A stretch of DNA of 64,000 bases from Thermoanaerobaculia bacterium. GTDB lineage: Bacteria; Acidobacteriota; Thermoanaerobaculia; Multivoradales; JAHEKO01. The stretch is from the NCBI GenBank assembly GCA_046756565.1, contig JBHHWO010000002.1:1141-65140 (forward strand), in the 5' to 3' direction. The notes beneath the pieces were generated by a model. It did no database searches. It had not been told where the DNA came from and was given only the letters and a program-made list of their open reading frames with translations. Made by a program: the position numbers and the translations under genes. How positions within the stretch are numbered: position 1 is the first letter of the stretch; every line of letters starts with the position of its first letter. Shown here in pieces: positions 7,951-32,692 of this stretch.

Positions 7951-7952
7951 CC

Positions 7953-18674: not shown

Positions 18675-19067
18675 TCACCCGAGTCCGGCAAGACCTTCGG
18701 CGGCCTCGTGCATTTCTTCCAGCTCGTAGCTGTAAAGCAGAGAGCGAATGGTCAGTCGCGGCGCGAGAGCAACTCCTTCGGCAAACGGCCAAATGTCGAT
18801 CGTTTCCCAAGGGCAGTGGCGCGCACACAACTTGCAGCCGATACAGCGATCCAGATCGACCTCCACTAGTTTCAGGAGGTCGGAAAACTGCGGGCCCGGG
18901 ACAACCTCGATGCAGTCTACCGGACAAAACGCGATACAGACCTCGCAACCACTGCATCCGGTCTGATCCACCACCGCGATCTCGTTGGGGGCCCGAGGCC
19001 GCGGTGGTTTGTCGACCTCGACCCTTTTCTCGTGTGTCTGATGGTCGGTCATGCCGCTGTTCCCCAT
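18675..19067 (-). CDS. 2x[4Fe-4S] ferredoxin-type protein
   Basis: CSGCEVCIAFCP and CIGCKLCARHCP motifs. No signal peptide. Confidence 0.8.
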   Translation of the reverse strand: MGNSGMTDHQTHEKRVEVDKPPRPRAPNEIAVVDQTGCSGCEVCIAFCPVDCIEVVPGPQFSDLLKLVEVDLDRCIGCKLCARHCPWETIDIWPFAEGVALAPRLTIRSLLYSYELEEMHEAAEGLAGLG

Positions 19068-19076
19068 GCCGCCAGG

Positions 19077-21470
19077 CTACGGGATCGTCGGCGAGTCGTC
19101 CCCTGCGGCTGCGGGCCGGTAGGGAAAGCCCTCCATGTCGGCGCCGTGACAGCTCAGATAGCAGCGACGCTGGCGGGTCGACGTGTTGATCCACCATTCA
19201 GGGAGCGCGCGGCCGCCGAAGGGAGTGATGTCCGGCGAGAAGTTGACCAGATGGGTCTTGAAGCCGGCCGGTGGTGAGGTGAAGATCGTGCCGTTGACGT
19301 TGTACTGGGTGTTGTCCGCGGTGCGGTTCGAGTGGACGTTGAAGTGGCAGTTTTTGCACGTCGCCCGCGTGTCGTCGATGCGGTCGACCAGATGGACCTC
19401 GTGGAGGTTGTCGCGGCCATCGATCGTGTCGTAGAAGTTGGTCGACGCCGGTGGGTTGTCGTCGTCCCGACGGGCTTCGACGAGGCGTGCCGGATCATGG
19501 CAGAGGAAGCAGAGCTCGAAGTTGCTCCGGTTCCAGCTCGCTGGGCCTTGTAGATCGGTCCAGTACTCGGCGCGCCGGATGGCGGCGTTCGTCGAACCGT
19601 GAGGACCCTTGGGGGAGGCCGGCGAGTTCGACGCCGGACCGAAAGCGTCGGCAGTGGCCTCGTTGTTGTGACAGTCGGTACAGTCGATGGTGGAGGTCGT
19701 CGACAGCCCGCCCAGTAGCGCGTTGTTCAGGTTGGCCGACTGGTTCTGTCCCTGACCGGCAACAGGATGGAAGGCGCTGTTCGAAGTCTGGAAGTCGAGC
19801 CTCTTGTTGCTGGTTCCCGGCCGCGAGCTGTTGAACGTGTCTCCGTGACACTTGAAGCACAACTCGTACTGGACGAGATCTCGTTCGTTACCCGTGCCGG
19901 GCCCCACGGGATTGCCGGCCAGGTCGATTCCAGTGGCGCCGGCGAGCTTGTTGTCGGGTCGCGCCTTGTGGGGATTGTGGCAGTCGACACACTCGACCGA
20001 GCGTCCGGCGGTCTGCTCGGGGTCCGAGATCGGATGGTGGAAGATATCGGCACCGTTGGTGCCCTTCTGGAACTCGCCACGTATGTCGGTGCCGGCGGGC
20101 GAGCCATCGTGGCAGGTGAAGCACAGGTCCTCTGCATCGGCCGGGTCGCTGCCGTCGGCTGCAATGTCGTAGCGCTCGACCCAGAGCCTGGGGTAGTCCT
20201 GAGCCGGGGTCGCGTCGTCGGGCCAGCCGTGCGGCCAGTGGCAGTTCACGCAGCTACCGCGCTTCTCCGCCGTATGCGCAGGGAAGCTGGAGCCGTACTC
20301 GCCGCCGGGCCACAGCACACCGGTCGCAGCGTCGAAGTGCGAGCCGGCGACACGGTCGGCCAGCGTGTGGCACTCGAAGCAGACTTCGGTGATCGCCGCG
20401 CGCAGAATATAGCCGTCGTCGGTGCCCGAGGTGGCGGGATTGCCGCCCGGGAAGAAATGAGGCGCGTGACAGGTCATACAGCGGACGTTGGCCCCGGCGT
20501 CGAGCGGCAGCTGCAGCGGTGTCTGAAAGGTCGGATCGGCCGGAATGGGTACTCCAACCGGATGCGATCCCTGATCCGACGAGGTCACGTCGCGGACCTC
20601 GTGGCAGGTCGTACACATCTGATTGGTATCGTTTTGGACCCGCTGGTAGTGGCGACCGACACCGGTTCCGGTCCAGCCGGATCCGGCGCCGGTAAAGGGT
20701 GGAGCATTGGGATCGAAGGGCTGCTTGTCCTGCCAGTGCTGGTTGTGGCAGACGGTACACACCACCTTCTCGGCGCTGCGCTGGAAGCGGTTGGCCATGT
20801 CCGCCTCGAAGGCGATGCCGGGGTCCGGTGCCCGGAGGTCGGTGCGCACCCACAGCGTCCAGGTGTCCCCGGGGAGAAAGCTCGGCGACGCCGGCGCGTC
20901 GATGAAATCGAGGGTCAGGCCCGCGTCGAGCGGCACCGCCGCCCCCGAGGTGCCGGAGCCACTGCCGCCTTCCGAATCGGTCCAACTGAATGTCGCGATA
21001 CCCGCGTCACCGCCACCGGGAGGACCGGTGACGGTGATCGTGTAGGTGCGCTCGATGCGGCCGGTGAAAGCTCCGGCCGAGCGAATGAGGCCCGCAGAGA
21101 GGTTGGTGCCGGCGGCCTCGACGTGTCCCGAAGGACCGGAGTCCCACCGATGGGAGGTGCCGCTGAGCCCCGGGAAGGCCTGATCCGTGTCGCTCAGCGG
21201 CCGGTTGGCGGCCTGGCCGGTCACGTTGTGGCACGACTGGCACAGCAGGGGGACCGTCTGCGCCTTGATGATCGAGATGCCGTCGGCGTGGTGCGGCGTG
21301 TGGCAGGCCAGGCATGGCGCGTCGGGGAGCAGCACGTCGGAGTGCGGCGGATCGACGAACTGGGCCAAGGTCTCCGGGGCCGCAGCGGCGAAGAGGATGA
21401 TCGCCAGGACGACGGGCCGAGCACGTCCATTCAGGTTCGCTGTTCTCTTCATCGGTCGCGGTTCGTTCAT
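19077..21470 (-). CDS. Large multihaem cytochrome c (13 CxxCH + 1 CxxxCH)
   Basis: Signal peptide VVLAIILFAAAAPETLAQ. Counted by eye: CLACH, CQSCH, CTVCH, CTTCH, CMTCH, CFECH, CVNCH, CFTCH, CVDCH, CFKCH, CTDCH, CFLCH, CKNCH, plus CYLSCH. Confidence 0.9.
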   Translation of the reverse strand: MNEPRPMKRTANLNGRARPVVLAIILFAAAAPETLAQFVDPPHSDVLLPDAPCLACHTPHHADGISIIKAQTVPLLCQSCHNVTGQAANRPLSDTDQAFPGLSGTSHRWDSGPSGHVEAAGTNLSAGLIRSAGAFTGRIERTYTITVTGPPGGGDAGIATFSWTDSEGGSGSGTSGAAVPLDAGLTLDFIDAPASPSFLPGDTWTLWVRTDLRAPDPGIAFEADMANRFQRSAEKVVCTVCHNQHWQDKQPFDPNAPPFTGAGSGWTGTGVGRHYQRVQNDTNQMCTTCHEVRDVTSSDQGSHPVGVPIPADPTFQTPLQLPLDAGANVRCMTCHAPHFFPGGNPATSGTDDGYILRAAITEVCFECHTLADRVAGSHFDAATGVLWPGGEYGSSFPAHTAEKRGSCVNCHWPHGWPDDATPAQDYPRLWVERYDIAADGSDPADAEDLCFTCHDGSPAGTDIRGEFQKGTNGADIFHHPISDPEQTAGRSVECVDCHNPHKARPDNKLAGATGIDLAGNPVGPGTGNERDLVQYELCFKCHGDTFNSSRPGTSNKRLDFQTSNSAFHPVAGQGQNQSANLNNALLGGLSTTSTIDCTDCHNNEATADAFGPASNSPASPKGPHGSTNAAIRRAEYWTDLQGPASWNRSNFELCFLCHDPARLVEARRDDDNPPASTNFYDTIDGRDNLHEVHLVDRIDDTRATCKNCHFNVHSNRTADNTQYNVNGTIFTSPPAGFKTHLVNFSPDITPFGGRALPEWWINTSTRQRRCYLSCHGADMEGFPYRPAAAGDDSPTIP

Positions 21471-21474
21471 CGGA

Positions 21475-23619
21475 TCAGGGCATCAAGGTGGGGTCGATGA
21501 TCACCGAGAGCTTCGCCCCCTGATGAAAGGAAAGTCCGCCGTCGAGGCGTACCGATACACCGGCCCGCAGAGTCAGATTGCCGGTGCCTTCGACAACAAC
21601 CCCTGGGCCCACCGAGACCAGTTCGCAGGCCGCGAACTCTCGAGCGGTTGCCACGGTCTCGTTGGAGATCTGAAGAACGGCGACGCTCACAAGGCCGTCG
21701 CCATCGTTGCAGTCGTGGGAAAAACAGACACCATCGGCATCGCTGTCAAGCGTGGCGTTGTTGCCCGTACAAGGGTCACAGTCGTCGGGCACGCCGTCGC
21801 CGTCGGCGTCGAAGGTGTCGTTGAATCCAGGACACATGTCGCAGGGGTCGGGCACACCGTCGCCGTCGGCGTCGTTACCCGAGCAGACATCACAGCCGTC
21901 GGGAATGCCGTCACCGTCGATGTCCAACGTATCGTCGAAACCTAGGCAGATGTCGCAGGTGTCGGGTACGCCGTCGCGGTCGGCGTCGAGTGCGTCGTTG
22001 AAACCGGGGCAACGGTCGCAGGCGTCGGGCGCGCCGTCTCCGTCGGCGTCGAAGGCGTCATCGAATCCGGGGCACAGGTCGCAGCCGTCGGGTACGCCAT
22101 CTCCGTCTGTCTCCGCCGTGTCGTTCCATCCGGCGCAGATGTCGCAACCGTCAGGTACGCCATCACCGTCGGTGTCGACCGCGTCGTTCGCTCCGGCGCA
22201 GATGTCGCAGGCATCGGGTAGGCCGTCGGCGTCTGCGTCCAGGGTGTCGTCGAACCCCGGACAGACGTCGACGGCATCCGGCACCCCGTCGTTGTCACCG
22301 TCAGGACTGGGCGCTACGATCACGGCGTCGAAGCCCTCGAGCGCGAAGGCACCCATCAGGCCGGCTATGCGTATGACCCCGCTGCCCGCCGCCGGCAGGG
22401 TGGATGCGAGCTGAGTGCCGTCGAAAGCTACGTGGACGTCGGGTGTCTGGTCGCCATCGGCATCTCCGAGCACCGCGGATCCCGCGATAGGCGCGACACT
22501 ATTGGCGGTGAGGGAGCCGAGGTCGATGAGCGCGAGATCGTAGCCGGGTAGTTCGAGCGTAGCCGACACCTCCGCGTGCACCAGCGGGTCGAAGACCTGC
22601 GGCTCGACCTCGACTTCGAGCTGGACGACGGTCTCCGGGTCGACGTAGCTGTCGAGGCCGTACATCTCGATGCGGGCGGTGGTGTTGGCGGTCGTCACCA
22701 GGCGCCCCGAGGGATCGATCAGAACGTCAGTGGGAGTGGCGAGCTGGCCCGGTCCCACGCCGACGTCGTTCACGTCGCCGATCGTCACTACCGTCGCCCC
22801 CAGGCGGTCGATGACGTGGACCCAACCTTCGAAGGCGTCGGACACGAAGATCCGGCCGAGAGCGTCGGCCCAAATGCCCTGCGGCATGTTGAAGCGGCCG
22901 CTGCCCGAACCTTTTTCCCCCAGGCAGGCGACGAAGGCGCCGGCGCGGTCGAAGATCTGGATCCGGCCGTTCAGCTGGTCGGTGACCAGCACCTCGTCGG
23001 CGACGGTGTCGATGTGGATTCCAGCGGGAAACTGAAACTGCCCGTCGCCCGTGCCGCGCGCGCCGAAACCGAAGCGCTTGACGCCAGCGACGTCGTACAC
23101 CTCGACCCGGTTGGCAATGCTGTCGACCACCCAGACATCGCCGGTCGCCGGGTCGACGGCGGCGTCGCCCGGCAGGCCGAACTCGCCGGCGCCTTGGCCC
23201 AGGTCGAAGAGTGCCTGCCAGTCCGAGGTGTAGGCCGTGACACGGCCGTCGACTCCGTCCCCAACGTAGATTCGGTCGCCGGCGGCCGTTACAGCGACAC
23301 TCACCGGCTGGCCCAGGCCTTCGCCCACGGTCAGGAGCCTGCCGTCGGCGGCGCGCACCGCGACCTTGGCGCCTACTGCATCGGCGATATAGATGCGCCC
23401 GAGAGTGTCGACGGCGAGCCGCGTAGGAGTCTGGAACGAAGCGCGGTAGCCGCGCAACCACTCCACTGTGGGCGCCGGTAGCGCCGAGGTCCCGCCGCTC
23501 GAACAGACCGTCGCCATCGCAACCGTCGCCACCGGTCCGAACATGCCAAGCAGCAAGAGCAGCCAGATCCGTAGCGGCGGCACCGGTCGGCCGACAGCTC
23601 GAGTGTCGCTCTCACTCAT
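21475..23619 (-). CDS. NHL-repeat beta-propeller protein with thrombospondin type-3-like Ca-binding repeats
   Basis: ATG at 23619 (the track gives TTG 23658). Signal/lipobox VAMATVCSS. NHL blades (IYIADAVGAKVAV, VWVVDSIANRVEVYD, VLVTDQLNGRIQIFD, IFVSDAFEGWVHVID). Then 8-9 units of C-x-G-x-D-D-x-x-D-x-DGDGVPDxCD. Confidence 0.85.
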   Translation of the reverse strand: MSESDTRAVGRPVPPLRIWLLLLLGMFGPVATVAMATVCSSGGTSALPAPTVEWLRGYRASFQTPTRLAVDTLGRIYIADAVGAKVAVRAADGRLLTVGEGLGQPVSVAVTAAGDRIYVGDGVDGRVTAYTSDWQALFDLGQGAGEFGLPGDAAVDPATGDVWVVDSIANRVEVYDVAGVKRFGFGARGTGDGQFQFPAGIHIDTVADEVLVTDQLNGRIQIFDRAGAFVACLGEKGSGSGRFNMPQGIWADALGRIFVSDAFEGWVHVIDRLGATVVTIGDVNDVGVGPGQLATPTDVLIDPSGRLVTTANTTARIEMYGLDSYVDPETVVQLEVEVEPQVFDPLVHAEVSATLELPGYDLALIDLGSLTANSVAPIAGSAVLGDADGDQTPDVHVAFDGTQLASTLPAAGSGVIRIAGLMGAFALEGFDAVIVAPSPDGDNDGVPDAVDVCPGFDDTLDADADGLPDACDICAGANDAVDTDGDGVPDGCDICAGWNDTAETDGDGVPDGCDLCPGFDDAFDADGDGAPDACDRCPGFNDALDADRDGVPDTCDICLGFDDTLDIDGDGIPDGCDVCSGNDADGDGVPDPCDMCPGFNDTFDADGDGVPDDCDPCTGNNATLDSDADGVCFSHDCNDGDGLVSVAVLQISNETVATAREFAACELVSVGPGVVVEGTGNLTLRAGVSVRLDGGLSFHQGAKLSVIIDPTLMP
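21694..22305 (-). repeat. In-frame tandem ~63-bp (21-aa) TSP3-like repeats inside the NHL gene
   Basis: Protein residues ~452-655: CPGFDDTLDADADGLPDACDI / CAGANDAVDTDGDGVPDGCDI / CAGWNDTAETDGDGVPDGCDL and so on. The DNA shows the recurring gtcgggcacgccgtc[gc]ccgtcggcgtc. Confidence 0.85.
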
Positions 23620-23654
23620 CTGCAAGCTCCGGAATGAGTGGCAACCGTCACGTA

Positions 23655-26339
23655 TCAAGGCCTCTCAATTCGCTTTTCAAGGCCGAAACGGCACATCCCG
23701 TGCGCGTTCTCTTCGAGAATCTTCCACTCGCTTCCCTCCCGAACGAGCTCGAGCGTCTTGTCGACGGAGTCCGAGCAGAGACTGGAGCGATAGGCCTGGC
23801 AAAACGAGACGCGAACCCGGTCGCGGCTCGATTCGGTGATCGATAACGACTCGATATCGACTTCGATCCAGGCTGGAGCCAACAATCGTTGCCGACGAAG
23901 CCTTTGCCAAGCGTCGCGCTTCGCGCCACTCGCGGGTCGGAACTCGGCCGAATAGGAGGACAGGTAACGGTCGACGTCTCCGGCCGCCCACGCGGCGGCC
24001 CAGCCCTCTACGACCGATCGGATGGCCCTTTCCTCCTGGCTTCGATCCGGTACTGTCGTCTGTTCCCTCTTTCCATCCCGAGGTGCTTCCACTTGCCCGG
24101 AAGTCGACTCGGCAGGTTGCGTTGGCGCCTGCGTCTCCGGCTCGCCTGAACCGGATGGCTCGGCCGGGTTCTGCTCACCCCGGCCCGCTGCGTGCTCGGC
24201 AAGATCGAAAAGACCGGAAGTCTCGGTGATGCCCGGCTCATCCTGCTCCCAGGCGGCTTCCGCTCCGTAGGGATACGGCTCCATGCCGGGCAAGTCCTCC
24301 GGCCAGGGCTCGTACTCTGGAGCTCTCCTGCGGGCGGGTAACGTGCCTGGAAAGAACCGACGTGAAAATCTCAGAGAGCCGGTGACGCCCTCGACCGTTT
24401 GAAAGCCCCGCTCGCGTTGCCAGTGCTCGGCCGATGCGATCAGCTGCACCTTGCCCAGTCTCCATCTGGCGCTGAATCCGAAACGCTCGAATGCCTGGTC
24501 TGCCGCCAGGCTATCGACGACCTCCCGGTGACTGGCATAGGACTCGAGCTTCAGCGATGGCACGGGTTCCCACTGCGCGCTCACTCTGCCCTCCATGACT
24601 TCCGTCTCTCGCACCGGCCTCTTGAATCGAGTATCCATCCAAACGAGATTCGCCCGGATCGTCCACCTGGAACTCGGGATGTAGGTGAGGCCGTCGGCGA
24701 GCCGGAGCGATTCGAATGCGAGGAGACTGGAGTCGCGAGTTCGGAGTTCGTTGAACGAGCTGAGTTTGATCCGTTGTCCGTCCCGGCGGAGTCTGAAGCC
24801 GGCGTACTTGTCCCTACGATCGTCAAGCAGAGAATCCGTTTGGCCGGCCAGAAGGTCGTCGCTGAAGCTCCGGAAGCCGAAGAAGCCCGTAATCCAGGAG
24901 TAGTCGACGGAAACGTCCAACTCGGTGCGGCGCGAGTCGAACCGGCTCTCGTCGGGAACTCGTATTCGATACTCGACCAGAATCGACTGACCGTCGGCGA
25001 TTCTTCCGCCGGGCAGAGGCAAGATCTCGGCGAACTCTCCAACGAAGTGGATCTCGTAGTCGGTTCCCTCCTCGAAGATCGTGCTTCCGAGTTCGTCGGT
25101 TACGACCACCGTTCCGGGAATCACCGCCGGCTGATCGAGCCGCGACGGAACTCCGAATCGAAGCCGCTGTTGCTCTCGGGAGATCAAGAGCTCGCCATCG
25201 CCGTCCAGGCTGTCGCGCCGGTCGTAAGTGCTACCGAGGCGACCGGTGAGCTTGCCCCGTCCGGGCAGCCTCTTTCTGTAGTCGAACTGGAGCCTGGCCT
25301 GGTCTTGACTGCTGCGGCCCGCGTCCGAGGTGAGATCCGATCTGGTGAAGCGAAGGTCGGTGTCGAGGCTCTCCCAGAGGCGGTGGTTAAGCCATGCGCT
25401 GAGCCTCTGAGAGTCGGTGGCTCGACCAGAGAAGGTTTCCTGATTCCTGTATTCGTAGCGCAGGCCGCTTTCGAGGGTGTCCCTGTGGCGCAGGCGGAGG
25501 TCTTCGTCGATCGAGAATGAAGACGAAGTCAGCTCCCCGGACCTGTCGAAGTAGCGTACCGTGGATCGCAGGGTCGCCAGCCGGGGCTCGAGCAGCTCGA
25601 TTGTGTGATTCAGGCTCGCGGTCTGAGTCTGATTGCTGAAGCGGGGTGATAGCTCGTCCTCGACATCCTCGATCTGAAGAAAAAGATAGGCCTCGTTGCG
25701 CCGCCACCGGTTCTCGGCCTGGTAGCTCAACGTCTCCTTTTTCTGGTCGAACGCTCGTATTTGCCGATCGAAATCGGAGATCGACTCGAGAGTGTTGTTC
25801 CGATAGCTCAACCGCGCCGGGAAGAACCTAGGTCCCACCTGAAATGCGAGACCGAGGCTGGAGGTGTCGAGCCTCTGGCTGCCGGCGAATTCGACCGGGG
25901 TTACGGTCTCAGCCTGGTTCGCGAACAGAGTGAATCCGTAGGCCTTGTCGGGCATGAAGGTCGCGTTCAGATCGTAGCCACGAACCTTGCCCTCGCCCGA
26001 TGCTTCCTGGTCGAGTCCGGAGGTGGTACTGCTCCGTAGAAAACCGAGGGTCAGGCCGAAGTTGACGGTCAGGAAGCGGCGGCTGACGAAGATGGCGGTG
26101 TTTCTGAACCCGAATCTCTGCTCGGTCTGGTTGCGCTCCACTAGAGGCCTGCTACCTGCACTCGAGAACAGATTCTGCTCCTGATGGTCGAATCCCAGTT
26201 CCGCGAAGCCCGTCCAGCGCCCAAGCCGGAATCCGCGGACCGTGGCCTGGGCCGGCGCGACGGCGCCAGCCCAGAGCGCGACAGCGAGGACCGCCGCCGT
26301 CACTCTGTGGTCGCCGGCCGCGGATTCAGTTGGCCACAT
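23655..26339 (-). CDS. Large outer-membrane beta-barrel-like protein with C-terminal linker and NTF2/SnoaL-like domain
   Basis: ATG at 26339 gives signal peptide VTAAVLAVALWAGAVAPAQA. About 650 aa of alternating-polarity strands end in GSLRFSRRFF (OM beta-signal-like). Then a ~105-aa P/E/Q-rich linker and ~124 aa ERAIRSVVEGWAAAWAAGDVDRYLSSY...WKILEE (NTF2-like). Confidence 0.65.
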   Translation of the reverse strand: MWPTESAAGDHRVTAAVLAVALWAGAVAPAQATVRGFRLGRWTGFAELGFDHQEQNLFSSAGSRPLVERNQTEQRFGFRNTAIFVSRRFLTVNFGLTLGFLRSSTTSGLDQEASGEGKVRGYDLNATFMPDKAYGFTLFANQAETVTPVEFAGSQRLDTSSLGLAFQVGPRFFPARLSYRNNTLESISDFDRQIRAFDQKKETLSYQAENRWRRNEAYLFLQIEDVEDELSPRFSNQTQTASLNHTIELLEPRLATLRSTVRYFDRSGELTSSSFSIDEDLRLRHRDTLESGLRYEYRNQETFSGRATDSQRLSAWLNHRLWESLDTDLRFTRSDLTSDAGRSSQDQARLQFDYRKRLPGRGKLTGRLGSTYDRRDSLDGDGELLISREQQRLRFGVPSRLDQPAVIPGTVVVTDELGSTIFEEGTDYEIHFVGEFAEILPLPGGRIADGQSILVEYRIRVPDESRFDSRRTELDVSVDYSWITGFFGFRSFSDDLLAGQTDSLLDDRRDKYAGFRLRRDGQRIKLSSFNELRTRDSSLLAFESLRLADGLTYIPSSRWTIRANLVWMDTRFKRPVRETEVMEGRVSAQWEPVPSLKLESYASHREVVDSLAADQAFERFGFSARWRLGKVQLIASAEHWQRERGFQTVEGVTGSLRFSRRFFPGTLPARRRAPEYEPWPEDLPGMEPYPYGAEAAWEQDEPGITETSGLFDLAEHAAGRGEQNPAEPSGSGEPETQAPTQPAESTSGQVEAPRDGKREQTTVPDRSQEERAIRSVVEGWAAAWAAGDVDRYLSSYSAEFRPASGAKRDAWQRLRRQRLLAPAWIEVDIESLSITESSRDRVRVSFCQAYRSSLCSDSVDKTLELVREGSEWKILEENAHGMCRFGLEKRIERP

Positions 26340-28155
26340 GGCAGCGAACACAGGTAGTGAATCCGATTTCCCACGCGATCCGGCCGTTGTGGCAGGTCGC
26401 GCAGAACTCACCCCGCCGCATGGCGGTCATGGTGATCGGGTTGGCTCCGGCTTTCATTTCGAACACACTCGGGTGGCACGAGGCGCACTTGAATCGGATG
26501 CGATGAAACCAGTGAGGAAACGTCGCCGGCGGAGTGTCCTTGCCGGCCAGCAGAAACAGCTCGTCGACCCCCGCTAGCTCGTCAGGACTCAAGCCTTCGA
26601 TGTTGTTCAAGGCAATCTGGGCTTCGGCAGCCAGCTCTGCCTCCGAGAGTTCCCTACGCTCGAAGTGGATGTCACCTTTGACCGCGAACGGTGACGGCTC
26701 CTCCTCGGCGAACGACAGTATGAATGCCGCTAACTGCCAAGCTTGTTCCGGTTGGAGAAACTGACCGAAGCCAGGCATAGGCGTGCCCGGGAAGCCGGTC
26801 ATGACGACTCGGTACATATCCCTGATACCGGAGCCGGACTTCGGCGGCCTCCCAGCCGCGAAGTTGTACGGCAAGATCGGATCGCCCCACTCGTCTTTCA
26901 GCGTTTCAGCCGAGGCGCCATCGGCCCGGCCCGTGTCGCCGTGGCACGCTTGGCAGCCGGCCTGTCTGTAGAAGGCTCGGCCCTGCTCGACCAATTCCGC
27001 CGTGACCTCGGGGGTCTCTGGGATGGTGATCGGTTCGTCCGGCTCTTCATTGGCGAACCGTGGAGAGAAGGACTTGACGAAGTGCGTCAATGCCCAGCGA
27101 TCCTCGGTTGACAGGGCGATCCAGCTGGGCATCGACGAGCCCGGGACACCACGAGTGATCGTCCGAAAGATGTCGTAGTCCGTCGGCAGGGAAGCTCCGA
27201 TTGTCGAGCGGAACTTGTACTTGCCGGCCGTGAAGTCGCGCGGCTTGGGATCCACCCACGGCGCCATCCGGCCCTGGCCGTCACCGGCGTCTCCATGACA
27301 GAGAGCGCAGTAGCGCTGGTATGCCTGCTGGCCCCGTTTGATCAGCTCGTCAGAAGCAACCAGTGGGCTGTCCAAAGCGCGAGCCAGCTCGGCATCGACA
27401 GTCTCGTCGCTCGCCGGCATGAGACTCGAGTGACAACGCGCACAGCTCAACTCCGGATCGTAGGACACTCGCCCGTGGCACTTGCCGCAGCCCTCCCCGG
27501 CGAGAATCCGGTCCATCGGCTTGCGCAGCGTCGCGGCGCCGGGATGGCAGCTCGAGCAAGTCAGCCAGAGCGTATGCGAGGCATGTGGGAAGTCCACCGT
27601 GAAGAACGGATCTGACTCGGGCACCAGCTCGAGGTCGAGATCGAGAACCGGACGATCGGGGAATCCGGCCGCCACCGTGGCAAACGTCTCCAGCCGAAAA
27701 GGCGGCTCGAAGGGAGTGGCCTGTGGTTCGGGAAGGGCTCGCGGTTCGATCAATCCATCTTTGATTGCCTGAACCCAGTCGACACCGCCGGCGTAGTCGG
27801 TGGGAAGCTGGGTCAGAGCCTCCTGCCACGTCGTGACATTCTCGAGCGGCGCCTTGACGGCGAGCTCGAGTCCCTCGATTACGGCCTGATCGAGCGGTAC
27901 GACAGGCGGCGAGTTTCGAGCTCGCCGAGCCCGCGCGGAATCGTCGCCGGTCGCGGGCGTCGGAGGCGGCGGGACGTTGGGACCAGGCTCGAGGAGGGAC
28001 TCTTCGACCCTCTCTTCGGTTGGCTCGGGGAGCCCATCGAAGAAAACCGAAAGCACTTTATGCCTGCTCGTCGTGGAGCAGGCATAGACCGCGGTCAGGC
28101 AAACGAGCGACGCCAAAACCGGTGCAGTTCGGAGTCGCCCTGGTGGTGCTCTCAC
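26326..28155 (-). CDS. Octahaem lipoprotein cytochrome c: c7-type trihaem + two class-I-like monohaem domains + c7-type trihaem
   Basis: Lipobox-like LTAVYAC. CSSCH, CGKCH, CARCH (first c7-like, FPHASHTLWLTCSSCHP). CALCHGD and CQACHGD (class I-like with downstream Met). CASCH, CATCH, CVRCH (second c7-like, FPHWFHRIRFKCASCHP). Confidence 0.85.
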   Translation of the reverse strand: MRAPPGRLRTAPVLASLVCLTAVYACSTTSRHKVLSVFFDGLPEPTEERVEESLLEPGPNVPPPPTPATGDDSARARRARNSPPVVPLDQAVIEGLELAVKAPLENVTTWQEALTQLPTDYAGGVDWVQAIKDGLIEPRALPEPQATPFEPPFRLETFATVAAGFPDRPVLDLDLELVPESDPFFTVDFPHASHTLWLTCSSCHPGAATLRKPMDRILAGEGCGKCHGRVSYDPELSCARCHSSLMPASDETVDAELARALDSPLVASDELIKRGQQAYQRYCALCHGDAGDGQGRMAPWVDPKPRDFTAGKYKFRSTIGASLPTDYDIFRTITRGVPGSSMPSWIALSTEDRWALTHFVKSFSPRFANEEPDEPITIPETPEVTAELVEQGRAFYRQAGCQACHGDTGRADGASAETLKDEWGDPILPYNFAAGRPPKSGSGIRDMYRVVMTGFPGTPMPGFGQFLQPEQAWQLAAFILSFAEEEPSPFAVKGDIHFERRELSEAELAAEAQIALNNIEGLSPDELAGVDELFLLAGKDTPPATFPHWFHRIRFKCASCHPSVFEMKAGANPITMTAMRRGEFCATCHNGRIAWEIGFTTCVRCHVAN

Positions 28156-28191
28156 ATTGCCGCCTTCCGGCCGGAGGTCAGGGTCGGGGCT

Positions 28192-28899
28192 CTATTCTCC
28201 AGTGAACTCGAAGCTGACTTGGGTTTCTCCGCTGTCGGCCACGGTGATCTCCCGCGTCTGCTCACCCAACTTCTCGTGCCAAAGCGAGAGCTGGTGATTC
28301 CCGGCGGGAACATCGGCCAAGGTAAAGCTTCCTGTTTCGTCGGTGACCGCCGTATAGCGACTATCGGTCACCAGAATCCACGCGGTCATCCATCCGTGCA
28401 CGTCGCACTTGACTTTGATCACCTCGGACTCGTCGAAGGTCAACTGCAGAGTCTGCACGAAGCCCGGCTGGGCCAGGTTCATCGGCGGGTTCTCGTCTGA
28501 GTAGGTGTGCACGTTGTGAAGGATGCCGTCGCTGTTGATCACCGCCATCTCCTCGCCGGGACGCGCGATCACCACCCGAGGCTCAAACGTGCAGCCATTC
28601 TGGTCGAGCTTCGGCTGCTCCGAGCTCTCGGTTGCACCCCGGGCGCTCGAGACCTGGACCACCGCCCACTGCAGCCCCTGGTCTTCACTGACGACGAGCT
28701 CGGGATCGACCTGCTCGGTGCCACAGACCGAAGTGTCCTGTGCCACCGCAACAGGTTCTGCGGCGGGCACGGTCCCGTTGAACTTGACCGTGCCTACAAC
28801 GGTACCAGCCGACAGGGTTGTCGACAGCGTGGACGTCAGAATCAGGATGGCCAGGACGGCGAGAGCTGATCTTGTCGAGTGGATGGGTCTTACTTGCAT
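28192..28899 (-). CDS. Secreted cupredoxin-like protein with C-terminal CarboxypepD_reg-like beta-sandwich
   Basis: Signal peptide. Type-1 Cu-like ligand pattern INSDGILHNVH ... KCDVHGWM (H...C-x2-H-x2-M, amicyanin-like spacing). C-terminal TDETGSFTLADVPAGNHQLSLWHEKLG. RBS AAGGAG 8 nt upstream. Confidence 0.7.
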   Translation of the reverse strand: MQVRPIHSTRSALAVLAILILTSTLSTTLSAGTVVGTVKFNGTVPAAEPVAVAQDTSVCGTEQVDPELVVSEDQGLQWAVVQVSSARGATESSEQPKLDQNGCTFEPRVVIARPGEEMAVINSDGILHNVHTYSDENPPMNLAQPGFVQTLQLTFDESEVIKVKCDVHGWMTAWILVTDSRYTAVTDETGSFTLADVPAGNHQLSLWHEKLGEQTREITVADSGETQVSFEFTGE

Positions 28900-29012
28900 G
28901 AGAGTTTTCTCCTTCTTTGAGTTCAGGAAGAGGCAAAACCGGCGCTCCGGTCTTGCCTCCTCTGGGGGTCGATCTGAGTTTCAGTAACGCGGTTGAGGGA
29001 CAGCTGTCCGCC

Positions 29013-29822
29013 CTAGCCGCGGTCGTGGCACTTCTGGCAGATGTACGACGCTCCAGGACCGGTTCCCGAGCCACCGAGGGTTCCGCGCAGCAGCGGCTGG
29101 TCGTGAACCAGGCCACGTTCGTTGTGGACACCGTGGCACGAGGTGCATTCGATTCCTGTGCTGCCCGCCACGGCACCGGCGGAGATGTTGCCGGCGTTGT
29201 CGTTGAAGAGGCGGATACCGAGAGAGGTCGGGTCCGGATTGAAGTCGGCTGTGAACGTATTGGCGCCGGTAGTCACGCCGTTGTAAGTGTTGGTCGTCGT
29301 CTGCTGGAAGGGATAGGGGAACGCGACCGGGTGGTTGCCGCTCATATTGCCGGTGGTCGGATCGGCGATGTTGAAGACGTCGACGTCGTGTGTGGTTGGA
29401 TCCAAGGCCGCGGCCCCTGTCCATGCCTGCTTGTTGAACCAGGCGATGTCACCGATCGCCACCGAACCGTCGTGACAGCTCAGACAGAGCTTGGTCGGGC
29501 CCTTCCAGGTGGTGTCGATAGTGGGGTAGGGAGTGCCGCCGGCCGTCACCGCACCCGCGTCCCAGGAGTAGGTGTTAGACGAAAGTGTGTGGTTCCACAA
29601 GAGGCTCTGCTGCTGAGCCCTGTGGGGTGTATGGCAGAAAGTGCAGCCGCCGGTGGTCGCGGTCGGGTTGCCCGTGTTGCCCGCTGCGATTCCGGAGAAA
29701 TCGTGCGGGCTGTTCGTGAAGCCGGATCCTGGTGTGTAGCTCTGCGCCCAGGCCGCTCCCGAGAAGAGCAGCAGCACGGTGACGAGCGTCGTGAGTGCCA
29801 ACCTGGAGTTTGTTCCTCTCAT
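29013..29822 (-). CDS. Secreted tetrahaem cytochrome c (paired-CxxCH type)
   Basis: Internal ATG at 29822 after GGGAGGA. Signal peptide LALTTLVTVLLLFSGAAWAQ. SPHDFS...CTFCHTPH, CLSCHDG, CTSCHGVH, CQKCHDRG. Confidence 0.85.
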   Translation of the reverse strand: MRGTNSRLALTTLVTVLLLFSGAAWAQSYTPGSGFTNSPHDFSGIAAGNTGNPTATTGGCTFCHTPHRAQQQSLLWNHTLSSNTYSWDAGAVTAGGTPYPTIDTTWKGPTKLCLSCHDGSVAIGDIAWFNKQAWTGAAALDPTTHDVDVFNIADPTTGNMSGNHPVAFPYPFQQTTTNTYNGVTTGANTFTADFNPDPTSLGIRLFNDNAGNISAGAVAGSTGIECTSCHGVHNERGLVHDQPLLRGTLGGSGTGPGASYICQKCHDRG

Positions 29823-29859
29823 TCCTGTCCTCCCATAGAAAGGTTGTAGAGATCGATTG

Positions 29860-31029
29860 CTATCGAGATTGAGACGCTCCCTCGTCGTTCGACGGAGAGT
29901 CCTTCTGGTCCGAAGAGATATAGCTGTCTTCAGCGGTCGTATTGACGAGCTCGTAGCGAGCGACGCGGTAGTTGAGGTAGTCGGCGATGTAGATGCGGTT
30001 CTGCCGGTCGATCGCAATTCCGGTCGGGTTCTTCAGAAGTCCGGGGTGAACTCCGCGCCCCCCGAAGAAAAGCAGCACCTGTCCCTTTTGATTGAAGATC
30101 TGAACGTTTGACCATCCGGAATCGACGACATATACGTTGCCGAAGCCGTCGATAGCGACCCCCTTGGGCTTGTCGAACATGCCGAATGCCGTTCCCCGCT
30201 CACCGAAGTACTTGAGGTAGTTGCCGTCCACGTCGAAGACGTCGACTCGGGACTTCAGGGTGCTGGTGACATAGAGGTTGCCGTCGGAATCTACGGCGAC
30301 GTAAGTCGGGAAGAACAGGCACCCGTCACAAATCCCCTTCTTTCCCACAGTGCGCAGCAGTCGGCCCTCGAGATCGAATACCTTTACCGAGTGATCCTCG
30401 GATGCCTTGGTCGCCGGATCCGCGACGTAGAGGAGGCCGCGCGTGCGATCGAGCTCGATGTCGGCGGGCCGCACTAGCGAAGGGTGCTTGATGATCCGGA
30501 TGGGTTCGTGCTGGCGGTCGAGCACCACGATCCGTCGATTGCCCTGTTCGACGACATAGAGATTCTCTTGCTCGTCCAGGGCCAGTCCAAAAGGACGGCT
30601 GAACGGCCGTGTGTCGCCGATCAAGGAGACCCGCTTGGTATCGAAGTCGAAAAGGAAGACCACGGCTTGACCGAAGTCGGAGACATAGAACCGCTTGCCG
30701 TCGTCAGACACCGCGACATCCATGGGCTGGTAAACGTGGGATTTCGGCGGCGTGGTTCCGGCGAAAAACTCCATGAACAGCTCACGCCGGGTGGGCTTGC
30801 GCCCGAGATGCTTCTCGTCGGCATACGACTGCAGAAACCTGATCCTGGGCTCCTGGGGAGGCTCGGGCCAAACCAGCTCGATCAACTCCGGTTCAACCAC
30901 CTTGGCCTTTCTGTTCTTGTTCCTCTTCTTGCCCTTCGCATCCGCCGTTTCGACACCTGCAATCAAAGTCGCGACGGCAACCAGCAAGACGAGCCAACGC
31001 CGGCCGAGATAGGTAGATTCCTTGATCAT
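29860..31029 (-). CDS. NHL-repeat six-bladed beta-propeller protein, secreted
   Basis: Signal peptide LVLLVAVATLIAGVETADA. Blades FYVSDFGQAVVFLFD, LYVVEQGNRRIVVLD, LYVADPATKASEDHSVKVFD, LYVTSTLKSRVDVFD, VYVVDSGWSNVQIFN, IYIADYLNYRVARYE. Confidence 0.85.
   Translation of the reverse strand: MIKESTYLGRRWLVLLVAVATLIAGVETADAKGKKRNKNRKAKVVEPELIELVWPEPPQEPRIRFLQSYADEKHLGRKPTRRELFMEFFAGTTPPKSHVYQPMDVAVSDDGKRFYVSDFGQAVVFLFDFDTKRVSLIGDTRPFSRPFGLALDEQENLYVVEQGNRRIVVLDRQHEPIRIIKHPSLVRPADIELDRTRGLLYVADPATKASEDHSVKVFDLEGRLLRTVGKKGICDGCLFFPTYVAVDSDGNLYVTSTLKSRVDVFDVDGNYLKYFGERGTAFGMFDKPKGVAIDGFGNVYVVDSGWSNVQIFNQKGQVLLFFGGRGVHPGLLKNPTGIAIDRQNRIYIADYLNYRVARYELVNTTAEDSYISSDQKDSPSNDEGASQSR

Positions 31030-31237: not shown

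Positions 31238-32684
<1,447 letters not shown>

Positions 32685-32692
<8 letters not shown>

What the first reader, a model, noticed from the sequence alone, without database searches (positions are those of the whole stretch)
19077..21470. 797-aa cytochrome with 13 CxxCH plus one CxxxCH and a ~130-aa haem-free insertion
- Haem motifs are spread along the whole length except residues ~95-235. That stretch (RIERTYTITVTGPPGGGDAGIATFSWTDSEGGSGSG...TWTLWVRTD) looks like a beta-sandwich inserted between haems 2 and 3.
- The last motif is CYLSCH (4-residue... strictly C-x3-CH), a rarer haem attachment variant.
- Its start lies 4 nt after the NHL/TSP3 gene stop, and its stop lies 9 nt before the ferredoxin gene start.
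- Its size and haem count fit an extracellular or OM-associated terminal reductase/oxidase rather than a periplasmic shuttle.
Basis: seen in the sequence. Interest (0 to 1): 0.6.

Follow-up and report, generated by a model that had tools for sequence, protein, structure and literature searches.

The report
Fourteen-haem cytochrome with propeller partner
This gene encodes a secreted protein that carries a chain of 14 iron-containing haem groups and is always encoded next to a propeller-shaped partner; it belongs to a large, uncharacterised family found in gene clusters that bacteria use to pass electrons between the cell and outside minerals, so it is an enlarged variant of a known kind of part, not a new kind of system.

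Summary
ORF 21470..19077 encodes 797 aa with 13 CxxCH plus a C-terminal CYLSCH. All 28 Cys lie in these motifs, and there is a 157-residue haem-free stretch between haems 2 and 3.

None of this is peculiar to this gene. The 13+1 pattern, the CxxxCH and the haem-free domain are conserved across a large, mostly metagenomic family spanning at least eight phyla. AlphaFold models the domain as a confident beta-sandwich with no solved relative.

- **Partner:** the most constant neighbour is an NHL propeller gene, which is sometimes fused to the cytochrome.
- **Cluster:** in this window the pair sits in an OmcE/Uet-type cluster: OmcE homologue, second NHL protein, cupredoxin-like protein, octahaem lipoprotein and large outer-membrane barrel.
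- **Shared module:** the C-terminal ~400 residues, including the CxxxCH, are homologous to the tail of OmcE-headed "undecahaem" (UetJ-like) cytochromes. They are also homologous to a 370-aa cytochrome of the Geobacter omcE locus.

Best reading (about 0.55): a Sec-exported bis-His electron wire that works with its propeller in outer-envelope electron transfer. Localisation and direction of electron flow are not shown. The adjacent ferredoxin is lineage-specific. It is a new variant of a known kind, of moderate interest.

The parts
19077..21470 (-). Gene for the 797-aa (791 aa if Met7 is the start) 14-haem c-type cytochrome
   Evidence: ORF and translation; motif count; Pfam Paired_CXXCH_1, MtrC/MtrF II-IV haem domain, c3_2 and c7.
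21363..21470 (-). Sec-type signal peptide (residues 1-36; predicted cleavage TLA|QF)
   Evidence: Read from the sequence: basic n-region, 13-residue hydrophobic core, A-x-A-like site. It is the only hydrophobic segment in the protein. No lipobox Cys. No signal-peptide predictor was available.
21342..21350 (-). Conserved N-terminal P-P-H motif (Pro41, Pro42 invariant; His43 at least 90% conserved), about 7 residues from the predicted mature N-terminus
   Evidence: Alignment A1. OmcE-like tetrahaems have an invariant His at a similar place (A3; Geobacter OmcE 'NTKHDLS').
21228..21314 (-). Haem sites 1 and 2 (CLACH, CQSCH; 24-residue spacing)
   Evidence: The spacing is conserved down to distant relatives.
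20847..21125 (-). Haem-free beta-sandwich domain (residues about 116-208)
   Evidence: AlphaFold2 full model (pLDDT about 90-94 here) and domain-only model (pLDDT 83, 8 strands). Conserved in all 63 family members. No significant Foldseek match in the PDB.
19344..20759 (-). Haem sites 3-13 (11 CxxCH at 33-59-residue spacing), built of repeated di-haem units CxxCHxxH...CxxCH...H
   Evidence: Internal repeats shown by hhalign tail versus tail.
19107..20294 (-). C-terminal module (residues about 393-788), shared with UetJ-like undecahaems and a Geobacter omcE-locus cytochrome
   Evidence: hhalign A1 versus L045 undecahaem: probability 100%, E 3e-44, residues 302-788. A1 versus the Geobacter 370-aa cytochrome: probability 99.5%, E 1.8e-22, residues 393-777.
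19146..19163 (-). Haem site 14, CYLSCH (CxxxCH), in a beta-hairpin of the model
   Evidence: CxxxCH is present at this column in 63 of 63 family members, in 120 of 120 UetJ-like proteins and as CVVGCH in the Geobacter protein.
21475..23658 (-). Cognate NHL six-bladed propeller with a TSP3-like C-terminal repeat region; translationally close (4 nt)
   Evidence: Pfam NHL and DUF5128. An NHL gene is adjacent to the cytochrome in 54 of 64 loci with enough flank. Fused in P0019 and P0242.
23655..26411 (-). 918-aa putative outer-membrane barrel with a C-terminal NTF2-like (Cds6_C) domain
   Evidence: Pfam Cds6_C only. Homologues in related loci end in a canonical ...RRF/...KRVF beta-signal. No detectable homology to the Geobacter omcE-locus 752-aa protein.
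26326..28155 (-). Octahaem lipoprotein-like cytochrome (c7-type modules plus two class I domains)
28192..28899 (-).
Evidence: Pfam.
29013..29822 (-). OmcE-homologous tetrahaem cytochrome
   Evidence: phmmer versus PDB: 7TFS_A, E 1.5e-14, nearly full length. BLASTP to Geobacter OmcE, E 6e-20.
29860..31029 (-). Second NHL propeller, counterpart of the Geobacter omcE-locus NHL lipoprotein
   Evidence: Pfam. BLASTP E 1.5e-45 to the Geobacter NHL protein.
31238..34481 (-). Sigma-54-type response regulator and sensor histidine kinase upstream of the cluster
   Evidence: Translations. Homologues lie near the cytochrome in 10-12 of 77 loci.
18675..19067 (-). 2x[4Fe-4S] ferredoxin-like protein without an export signal, 9 nt downstream; lineage-specific neighbour
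   Evidence: Pfam; sequence; conserved only in L001.

Best explanation
The gene encodes a Sec-exported c-type cytochrome of about 90 kDa that carries 14 covalently bound haems, probably all bis-His. The haems are arranged as seven di-haem repeat units and so form one continuous electron-conducting chain.

The protein works as a pair with the NHL beta-propeller encoded immediately upstream. In this genome the pair is part of an OmcE/Uet-type outer-envelope electron-transfer cluster: an OmcE-like tetrahaem, a second NHL propeller, a cupredoxin-like protein, an octahaem lipoprotein and a large outer-membrane barrel, with a sigma-54 two-component regulator upstream.

In this cluster it takes the place of the long "UetJ-type" cytochrome. 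It would be the multi-nanometre wire that links periplasmic carriers to the cell surface or exterior, either through or beside the barrel. The conserved C-terminal CxxxCH module and the beta-sandwich would serve as docking surfaces.

- **Shown here:** the gene, its motifs, their family-wide conservation, the propeller pairing and fusions, the homology of the tail to UetJ-like and Geobacter omcE-locus cytochromes, and the OmcE homologue in the cluster.
- **Inferred:** haem occupancy of all 14 sites, bis-His ligation, physical contact with the propeller or barrel, extracellular or outer-membrane location, and the direction of electron flow.
For: - **Motifs and conservation:** 13 CxxCH plus CxxxCH, far above chance. 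All 14 sites are kept in 61 of 63 family members, and the CxxxCH in 63 of 63.
- **Haem ligands:** 18 conserved non-motif His for 14 haems, in a regular CxxCHxxH...CxxCH...H pattern.
- **Export:** the signal peptide is the only hydrophobic segment.
- **Propeller pairing:** an NHL gene is adjacent on the same strand in 49 of 64 loci, and directly downstream in 5 more. NHL-cytochrome fusions exist, one also with PKD and MopE-like surface-protein modules.
- **Cluster identity:** the window tetrahaem matches the OmcE filament subunit 7TFS, and NHL389 matches the Geobacter omcE-locus NHL protein at E 1.5e-45. Barrel homologues end in an outer-membrane-protein beta-signal.
- **Published cluster make-up:** minimal omcE clusters hold two multihaem cytochromes, two propeller lipoproteins, OmcE and a large barrel (PMC13712944). 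The uet cluster holds a tetrahaem, barrel, c7 cytochromes, cupredoxin, two NHL proteins and a long cytochrome (10.1101/2022.05.06.490989).
- **Tail homology:** probability 100% to the UetJ-like undecahaem and 99.5% to the Geobacter 370-aa cytochrome, both including the terminal CxxxCH.
- **Host genome:** it is cytochrome-rich, with 29 ORFs carrying at least 3 CxxCH, and has a second such cluster.
Against: - No localisation evidence exists. There is no lipobox and no known surface-export signal.
- Within 10 kb, only 15 of 77 loci hold a barrel homologue and 29 of 77 an OmcE/UetJ-like gene. Some complete loci hold only the NHL-cytochrome pair. So the pair may act without a dedicated barrel.
- The window barrel shows no homology to the Geobacter omcE-locus barrel.
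- The AlphaFold models lack haems, and the region of haems 1-2 is poorly modelled (pLDDT below 50).
- In Desulfovibrio ferrophilus, deleting NHL-associated outer-surface cytochrome clusters caused no defect in Fe(III) oxide reduction (PMC9769857). Homology of those cytochromes to this family was not tested here, but the result shows that such clusters need not be essential.
- The published UetJ sequence could not be fetched for direct comparison.
Confidence: 0.55

Rival explanations
1. Periplasmic wire or electron store. The protein stays in the periplasm, like the Geobacter dodecahaem GSU1996-type "nanowire" cytochromes. There it bridges or buffers electrons between inner-membrane quinol oxidoreductases and outer-membrane components, with the NHL propeller acting as a periplasmic scaffold.
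For: - The only targeting signal is a plain Sec signal peptide.
- Pfam c7 and c3 haem-domain hits.
- Many loci carry only the NHL-cytochrome pair, with no barrel within 10 kb.
Against: - Fusion partners in relatives are typical cell-surface modules (PKD, MopE/TSP3-like, cellulose-binding C-terminal domain).
- The cognate propeller here carries a Cys-rich, Ca-binding TSP3-like tail.
- The tail is homologous to UetJ-like proteins, which their describers predicted to be extracellular (10.1101/2022.05.06.490989).
Confidence: 0.2
2. End-piece or anchor of an OmcE-type cytochrome filament. The conserved His near the mature N-terminus would supply the axial ligand that each OmcE subunit normally takes from its neighbour. 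The 14-haem chain would then join the filament to the barrel or the periplasm.
For: - An OmcE homologue lies in the same cluster.
- In OmcE filaments a haem is ligated by a His from the adjacent subunit (PMC9473688), and no anchor or tip protein has been identified (PMC13712944).
- The P-P-H motif lies about 7 residues from the predicted mature N-terminus, as does the conserved His of OmcE-like proteins.
- There is a surplus of conserved His: 18 non-motif His for 14 haems.
- The head aligns colinearly with OmcE-like tetrahaems (probability 95.5%).
Against: - The OmcE-like profile matches several tail segments as well or better (97.8% and 96.2%), so the head match is not specific.
- An OmcE/UetJ-like gene is found near only 29 of 77 family loci.
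- The N-terminal arm is poorly modelled.
Confidence: 0.12
3. Two-subunit extracytoplasmic redox enzyme. The NHL propeller holds a catalytic or substrate-binding site, as other six-bladed NHL/SGL-type propellers do. The 14-haem chain feeds or drains electrons, by analogy with propeller-plus-cytochrome enzymes.
For: - The propeller-cytochrome pairing is tight and near-universal, and fusions exist.
- The pair occurs on its own in many genomes.
Against: - No candidate open-coordination haem: there is no CxxCK and there are enough His for bis-His ligation of every haem.
- No catalytic-family hit was found for the propeller beyond generic NHL/DUF5128.
- Fourteen haems are far more than any known enzyme needs for delivering electrons.
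Confidence: 0.08

Closest known systems
UetJ, the long "undecahaem" cytochrome of the uetABCDEFGHIJ cluster (Candidatus Tenderia electrophaga / Tenderiales; also some Gallionella)
   Same: - It is the long multihaem cytochrome encoded after NHL propeller genes in a cluster that also holds a tetrahaem (UetA/OmcE-like), a barrel, c7-type cytochromes and a cupredoxin.
- It has a signal peptide and no other recognisable domain (10.1101/2022.05.06.490989; PMC10734462).
- The tail of OmcE-headed undecahaems found in related loci is homologous to residues 302-788 of this protein, including the terminal CxxxCH.
   Different: - This protein has 13+1 haem sites rather than 11 (+1).
- It has a conserved beta-sandwich between haems 2 and 3, and its N-terminal part is not a clear OmcE copy.
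- In several loci (L028, L045, L049, L050) a UetJ-like protein and a member of this family are encoded side by side, so they are separate families.
- The gene order differs from uetA-J.
- The Tenderia UetJ sequence itself could not be compared.
370-aa multihaem cytochrome of the Geobacter sulfurreducens omcE locus (three genes upstream of omcE: 370-aa cytochrome, 330-aa cytochrome, NHL lipoprotein gene, omcE)
   Same: - Homologous C-terminal module (hhalign probability 99.5%, E 1.8e-22), ending in CxxxCH (CVVGCH).
- Same cluster company: an NHL lipoprotein, OmcE and a large barrel-sized protein.
   Different: - It is less than half the size, with 9 CxxCH plus 2 CxxxCH.
- It has no beta-sandwich.
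- It is not immediately preceded by its own propeller gene.
- To my knowledge its function is also uncharacterised.
MtrC/OmcA outer-membrane decahaem cytochromes (Shewanella)
   Same: - They are the working analogy: a surface multihaem wire in which haem domains alternate with beta-rich domains, and which partners with a barrel-embedded conduit.
- The Pfam MtrC/MtrF II-IV haem-domain model matches (64.6 bits against a cut-off of 30).
   Different: - This protein has no lipoprotein signal.
- It has 14 rather than 10 haems, and no four-domain I-IV architecture.
- There is no sequence or fold match to solved MtrC/OmcA structures.
OmhA, multihaem cytochrome of Carboxydothermus ferrireducens (PDB 6QVM)
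   Same: It is the best solved-structure match by profile (E 6e-6; profile positions 220-435 against chain residues 380-602), and it is a surface multihaem cytochrome.
   Different: The similarity is weak, partial and haem-motif-driven. OmhA comes from a Gram-positive organism and has a different architecture.
OmcE tetrahaem nanowire subunit (PDB 7TFS)
   Same: - This protein is built from the same kind of di- and tetra-haem repeat: the OmcE-like profile matches the head and several tail segments at 92-98%.
- Both have a conserved His near the mature N-terminus.
- A true OmcE homologue lies in the same cluster.
   Different: - OmcE has 4 haems in about 230 aa and polymerises.
- This protein has 14 haems in one chain.
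- A direct phmmer search of the PDB with this protein gives no hit.

Membership tests
UetJ (uet cluster undecahaem) | Eleven CXXCH motifs | tested here: not met
   This protein has 13 CxxCH plus 1 CxxxCH, conserved family-wide.
UetJ (uet cluster undecahaem) | Encoded after NHL propeller gene(s) in a cluster with a tetrahaem, barrel, c7-type cytochromes and cupredoxin | tested here: met
   All component types are present at 21475-31029, and the gene directly follows an NHL gene. The gene order differs from uetA-J, and no PPIase or ccsAB was seen next to it.
UetJ (uet cluster undecahaem) | Sequence orthology to Tenderia electrophaga UetJ | not testable with these tools
   The Tenderia sequence could not be fetched. 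The proxy, OmcE-headed undecahaems from related loci, shares only the tail and co-occurs with this family as a separate gene.
UetJ (uet cluster undecahaem) | Signal peptide, no transmembrane helix, no other known domain | tested here: met
OmcE-type nanowire subunit | About 230 aa, 4 CxxCH plus 4 further conserved His, significant similarity to 7TFS | tested here: not met
   797 aa, 14 sites, and no phmmer hit to the PDB. Only module-level profile similarity, repeated along the chain. The neighbouring gene at 29013-29822 does meet this test.
MtrC/OmcA family decahaem | Lipoprotein signal, 10 haems, domains I-IV (two beta-barrels plus two pentahaem domains) | tested here: not met
   No Cys in the signal peptide and 14 sites. 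Only the haem-domain Pfam model matches. No fold match.
MtrA/DmsE family periplasmic decahaem (TIGR03508) | Score above the NCBIfam cut-off (192.2 bits) | tested here: not met
   64 bits.
GSU2203 family decahaem (NF041028) | Score above the cut-off (325 bits) | tested here: not met
   29.3 bits.
NrfA / HAO / ONR-type multihaem enzymes | Family HMM hit; catalytic haem with CxxCK or another open-coordination signature | tested here: not met
   No such Pfam or NCBIfam hit and no CxxCK. PDB profile hits to NrfA are only E 0.4-3.
CxxxCH-terminated cytochrome module (unnamed; defined here) | C-terminal module of about 150-400 residues with the pattern ...LCFxCH...NLHxxH...CxxCH...NF.P.....CxxxCH | tested here: met
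   Shared by this family (63 of 63), UetJ-like proteins (120 of 120), the Geobacter omcE-locus cytochrome and a 390-aa cytochrome in the second cluster of this genome.

The most novel reading that the evidence does not exclude
The propeller-paired 13+1-haem proteins may be the missing base or tip adaptors of OmcE-type cytochrome filaments.

- A conserved His about 7 residues from the mature N-terminus would complete the open haem of the terminal OmcE-like subunit.
- The 14-haem chain, held by its NHL propeller and docked through the shared CxxxCH module, would carry electrons through the outer-membrane barrel.

If so, the CxxxCH-terminated module would mark a phylum-spanning family of filament-to-envelope connectors.
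Probability: 0.12. Interest if true: 0.7.

Novelty: new variant of a known kind. Interest (0 to 1): 0.4.

Why it matters
Clusters of the OmcE/Uet type are emerging as a widespread way for bacteria to exchange electrons with minerals, electrodes and partner cells. However, only the small filament subunit has a solved structure, and the large accessory cytochromes and propellers are unassigned.

This analysis defines one such accessory family and gives three concrete handles for experiments on how electrons get from the periplasm to the filament or surface:
- an invariant layout of 13 CxxCH plus a terminal CxxxCH;
- a private beta-sandwich with no solved relative;
- an obligatory NHL partner, sometimes fused to the cytochrome.

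The analysis also shows that one C-terminal module ending in CxxxCH is shared by this family, by the very abundant "undecahaem" UetJ-like proteins (which therefore probably bind 12 haems) and by a cytochrome of the Geobacter omcE locus. That links model-organism genetics to uncultured lineages.

For this genome it marks a patchily distributed, probably transferred, electron-transfer island in a non-RuBisCO, oxidase-bearing Acidobacteriota-like organism.

Tried and rejected
**Searches that found nothing useful**
- A direct phmmer search of the PDB with the protein gave no hit. The profile search gave only weak, haem-motif-level hits: OmhA at 6e-6 and MtrA at 8e-4.
- Earlier-findings look-up by sequence returned no look-alikes.

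**Ideas tested and rejected**
- "The N-terminal quarter is an OmcE copy, as noted for UetJ." The head aligns colinearly with OmcE-like tetrahaems (95.5%). The control showed equal or better matches to tail segments, so this was rejected as a head-specific claim.
- "The protein is UetJ itself." Rejected, because OmcE-headed undecahaems are separate genes next to family members in four loci.
- Equivalence of the window barrel with the Geobacter omcE-locus 752-aa protein. No homology was found (probability 3%).
- A functional link to the ferredoxin. It is conserved in only 1 of 77 loci and has no export signal.

**Things that could not be done**
- Two further homologue searches gave only generic names ("cytochrome c3 family"). 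No Tenderia, Gallionella or Leptothrix names appeared, so published UetJ could not be tied to my proxy.
- The OmcE paper PMC9357133 is not held.
- The search for "Osc/Occ" companion-cluster papers found nothing usable.
Full report
**1. Observation**

The ORF lies at the stated coordinates but on the minus strand. The plus-strand translation is full of stops. The reverse complement of 19077-21470 is one open frame of 797 aa.

A regex count gives 13 CxxCH and one CxxxCH (CYLSCH at residue 770). There is no CxxCK, and all 28 cysteines lie in these 14 motifs. Shuffling the same residues 2000 times gave a mean of 0.037 CxxCH and never more than 2.

Haems 2 and 3 are separated by 157 residues. The database copy of the protein begins at Met7, which is conserved, so the start may be 21452.

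The N-terminus reads as a Sec signal peptide (basic stretch, 13 hydrophobic residues, TLA|QF) and is the only hydrophobic segment. The mature protein is 761 aa, about 81 kDa without haem, pI 5.2.

**2. Family**

The word-indexed search found 1860 relatives. The exhaustive search found 904 clusters at 50% identity with E <= 1e-3, of which 121 have E <= 1e-30. Source names are only generic ("cytochrome c3 family protein", "CXXCH cytochrome").

In an alignment of 63 members down to 47% identity, 61 keep all 14 sites. All 63 keep a CxxxCH at the last site, and all have a haem-free stretch of 148-179 residues between haems 2 and 3. So the "insertion" and the "rare motif" are family hallmarks.

Thirteen non-motif His are invariant and five more are at least 90% conserved. 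They follow a regular pattern (CxxCHxxH ... CxxCH ... H) that gives seven di-haem units, enough for bis-His ligation of all 14 haems with four to spare (ligation is inferred). Profile self-comparison confirms internal repeats.

A genome scan found 259 loci. The best 77 come from Acidobacteriota, Gamma- and Betaproteobacteria, Myxococcota, Gemmatimonadota, Verrucomicrobiota, Hydrogenedentes and Nitrospirae. The Acidobacteriota include a Thermoanaerobaculia MAG at 86% identity with the same local gene order, and cultured Geothrix species at about 33%.

Distant members keep the layout "haem 1, 24 residues, haem 2, about 160 residues, haem 3 ..." and usually 13 CxxCH. Some have a doubled haem-free domain, some have large inserts, and some lack the CxxxCH. 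Many database proteins match only the N-terminal or only the C-terminal half, including giants of 2000-3300 aa, so the halves recombine as modules.

**3. Structure**

AlphaFold2 with the family alignment gave mean pLDDT 79.5 and pTM 0.74. Residues about 116-208 form a beta-sandwich with pLDDT above 90. The C-terminal 80 residues, including the CxxxCH, are also beta-rich. The region of haems 1-2 is poorly modelled. The domain modelled alone gave pLDDT 83 and eight strands.

Foldseek against the PDB found nothing significant for either model. By sequence, the PDB holds no relative. The family profile reaches only OmhA (6QVM, E 6e-6, partial) and MtrA (E 8e-4, motif-level).

Pfam finds only generic multihaem models. 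The NCBIfam decahaem families score far below their cut-offs.

**4. Neighbourhood**

On the minus strand the window reads, in transcription order:
- histidine kinase and sigma-54-type regulator;
- NHL propeller (389 aa);
- tetrahaem cytochrome;
- 235-aa secreted beta-sandwich protein;
- octahaem lipoprotein-like cytochrome (c7-type plus class I domains);
- 918-aa protein with a C-terminal NTF2-like domain;
- NHL propeller with TSP3-like repeats;
- the 14-haem cytochrome;
- 2x[4Fe-4S] ferredoxin without an export signal;
- small secreted protein;
- FG-GAP/ASPIC protein.

The tetrahaem is a homologue of the OmcE filament subunit (7TFS, E 1.5e-14, nearly full length). Homologues of the 918-aa protein in other loci end in a typical outer-membrane-protein beta-signal (...SRRF...KRVF...TRKF).

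This matches two published cluster descriptions. Minimal omcE clusters always hold two multihaem cytochromes, two beta-propeller lipoproteins, OmcE and a large beta-barrel (PMC13712944). The uetA-J cluster of Tenderiales holds a tetrahaem, PPIase, barrel, three c7 cytochromes, a cupredoxin, two NHL proteins and an undecahaem (10.1101/2022.05.06.490989; also found in some Gallionella, PMC10734462). I treated that as a lead and tested it as follows.

**5. What is conserved with the cytochrome**

Hits to the window's cluster proteins within at most 10 kb, across 77 loci:

| Neighbour | Loci with a hit (of 77) |
|---|---|
| NHL propeller | 65 |
| OmcE- or UetJ-like cytochrome | 29 |
| Barrel | 15 |
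| Octahaem cytochrome | 9 |
| Cupredoxin-like protein | 3 |
| Ferredoxin | 1 |

Of 64 loci with more than 2 kb of upstream flank, 49 have the propeller ending less than 1.5 kb upstream on the same strand. Five more have it directly downstream.

Fusions occur. P0019 is propeller plus cytochrome. P0242 is propeller, PKD domains, cytochrome and MopE-like motifs. L019 and L022 are single ORFs of more than 2000 aa. In some complete loci the pair stands alone.

The core unit is therefore propeller plus cytochrome. The OmcE/Uet-type cluster is a frequent but not obligatory setting, and the ferredoxin is a lineage-specific neighbour.

**6. Relation to UetJ, OmcE and Geobacter**

In four loci (L028, L045, L049, L050) the hit to the OmcE-like query lies in a protein of about 600 aa with 11 CxxCH. 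Its first 225 residues match OmcE strongly (7TFS, E 2e-30). That protein sits next to a member of the present family, so the two are different families.

Their tails, however, are homologous. The family profile aligns residues 302-788 with residues 157-585 of the L045 protein at probability 100% and E 3e-44, including the final CxxxCH. All 120 best relatives of such an OmcE-headed protein have exactly 11 CxxCH plus a C-terminal CxxxCH.

I recovered the OmcE sequence from a tool alignment, found the Geobacter sulfurreducens protein and fetched its locus. The gene order there is: ppcA, resB, ccsB, a 370-aa cytochrome, a 330-aa cytochrome, an NHL lipoprotein, omcE, a 752-aa protein, then glycosyltransferases.
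- The 370-aa cytochrome (9 CxxCH, CATRCH, and a C-terminal CVVGCH) aligns with residues 393-777 at probability 99.5%, E 1.8e-22.
- The 330-aa cytochrome aligns at 96.8%.
- The window's first NHL protein matches the Geobacter NHL protein at E 1.5e-45.
- The barrels show no homology.

A colinear four-haem alignment of the head (residues 38-293) with OmcE-like tetrahaems scores 95.5%. The same profile matches tail segments at 97.8% and 96.2%. So the protein as a whole is built of OmcE-like repeats, and a specifically OmcE-like head is not shown.

The published Tenderia UetJ sequence could not be fetched. "UetJ-like" here rests on matching the published description and on earlier notes.

**7. Genome setting**

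The assembly is 4.8 Mb and 99.7% complete. It has 29 ORFs with at least 3 CxxCH, including 21- and 18-haem proteins.

A second cluster lies on contig C113: NHL, OmcE-like tetrahaem, a 390-aa cytochrome ending in CYVSCH, a trihaem, NHL, a 47%-identical 13+1-haem paralogue, and 9- and 18-haem proteins.

There is no RuBisCO large subunit, and there are three haem-copper oxidase subunit I genes. Only 2 of 31 related genomes carry the gene, and none of four genomes of the same genus do. The cluster is therefore accessory and probably transferred. The direction of electron flow (mineral reduction or oxidation) cannot be told from these data.

**8. Verdict**

The best-supported mechanism is a long bis-His haem wire that works with its propeller within, or alongside, an OmcE/Uet-type conduit (confidence about 0.55). 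The rivals are a periplasmic wire or electron store (0.2), a filament end-piece (0.12) and a propeller-cytochrome enzyme (0.08).

It is a new variant of a known kind. What may be new is the definition of the propeller-paired 13+1-haem family, and of a CxxxCH-terminated module shared with UetJ-like and Geobacter omcE-locus cytochromes.

Noticed in passing
L028:9185-11002, L045:9440-11230, L049:3254-5005, L050:3461-5251, and proteins P0388-P0507: The abundant OmcE-headed "undecahaem" (UetJ-like) cytochromes all carry a conserved C-terminal CxxxCH in addition to 11 CxxCH: 120 of 120 top hits. More than 6000 relatives have E <= 1e-10. They probably bind 12 haems, so "undecahaem" may be an undercount.
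   Followed up: partly
L081:6163-7275 (Geobacter sulfurreducens omcE locus): The 370-aa cytochrome three genes upstream of omcE has 9 CxxCH plus two CxxxCH (CATRCH, CVVGCH). It shares its C-terminal module with the window protein. The locus also encodes an NHL lipoprotein directly before omcE.
   Followed up: partly
window 29013-29822 (-): The tetrahaem cytochrome is a clear homologue of the OmcE nanowire subunit (7TFS, E 1.5e-14). It is preceded by its own NHL propeller gene (29860-31029), mirroring the NHL-cytochrome pair at 19077-23658.
   Followed up: partly
own genome, contig C113:524-13470 (outside the window): There is a second cytochrome cluster holding NHL, an OmcE-like tetrahaem, a 390-aa cytochrome ending in CYVSCH, a trihaem, NHL, a 47%-identical 13+1-haem paralogue, and then 9- and 18-haem proteins.
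   Followed up: partly
window 18675-19067 (-): The 2x[4Fe-4S] ferredoxin-like gene lies 9 nt downstream and has no Sec or Tat signal. It accompanies the cytochrome only in the closest relative (L001). A cytoplasmic iron-sulfur protein inside an operon of exported proteins is unexplained.
   Followed up: partly
own genome and 30 relatives: The gene is present in only 2 of 31 related genomes and in none of four same-genus genomes, while close copies occur in other phyla. This patchy distribution suggests horizontal transfer of the cluster.
   Followed up: partly
L007:14707-17199 and L028:6123-8543: The barrel homologues in these two loci contain one in-frame stop codon each. This could be a pseudogene, a sequencing error or read-through.
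   Followed up: no
L032, L035, L068, L072: Some gammaproteobacterial family members have a gap of about 325 residues between haems 2 and 3, which suggests a tandem duplication of the beta-sandwich domain.
   Followed up: no
window 6205-11395 (+) and 16329-18011 (-): Two FG-GAP/ASPIC (CRTAC1-like) proteins, a protein with a hydrazine-synthase-alpha middle domain and a propeller fused to a CCP/MauG-like di-haem domain flank the cluster. Three Ser/Thr kinases with TPR or FGE-sulfatase domains also lie in the window.
   Followed up: no
own genome (contigs C85, C74, C23): The genome has three haem-copper oxidase subunit I genes and no RuBisCO large subunit. The host looks like an oxygen-respiring organism without Calvin-cycle autotrophy.
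   Followed up: partly
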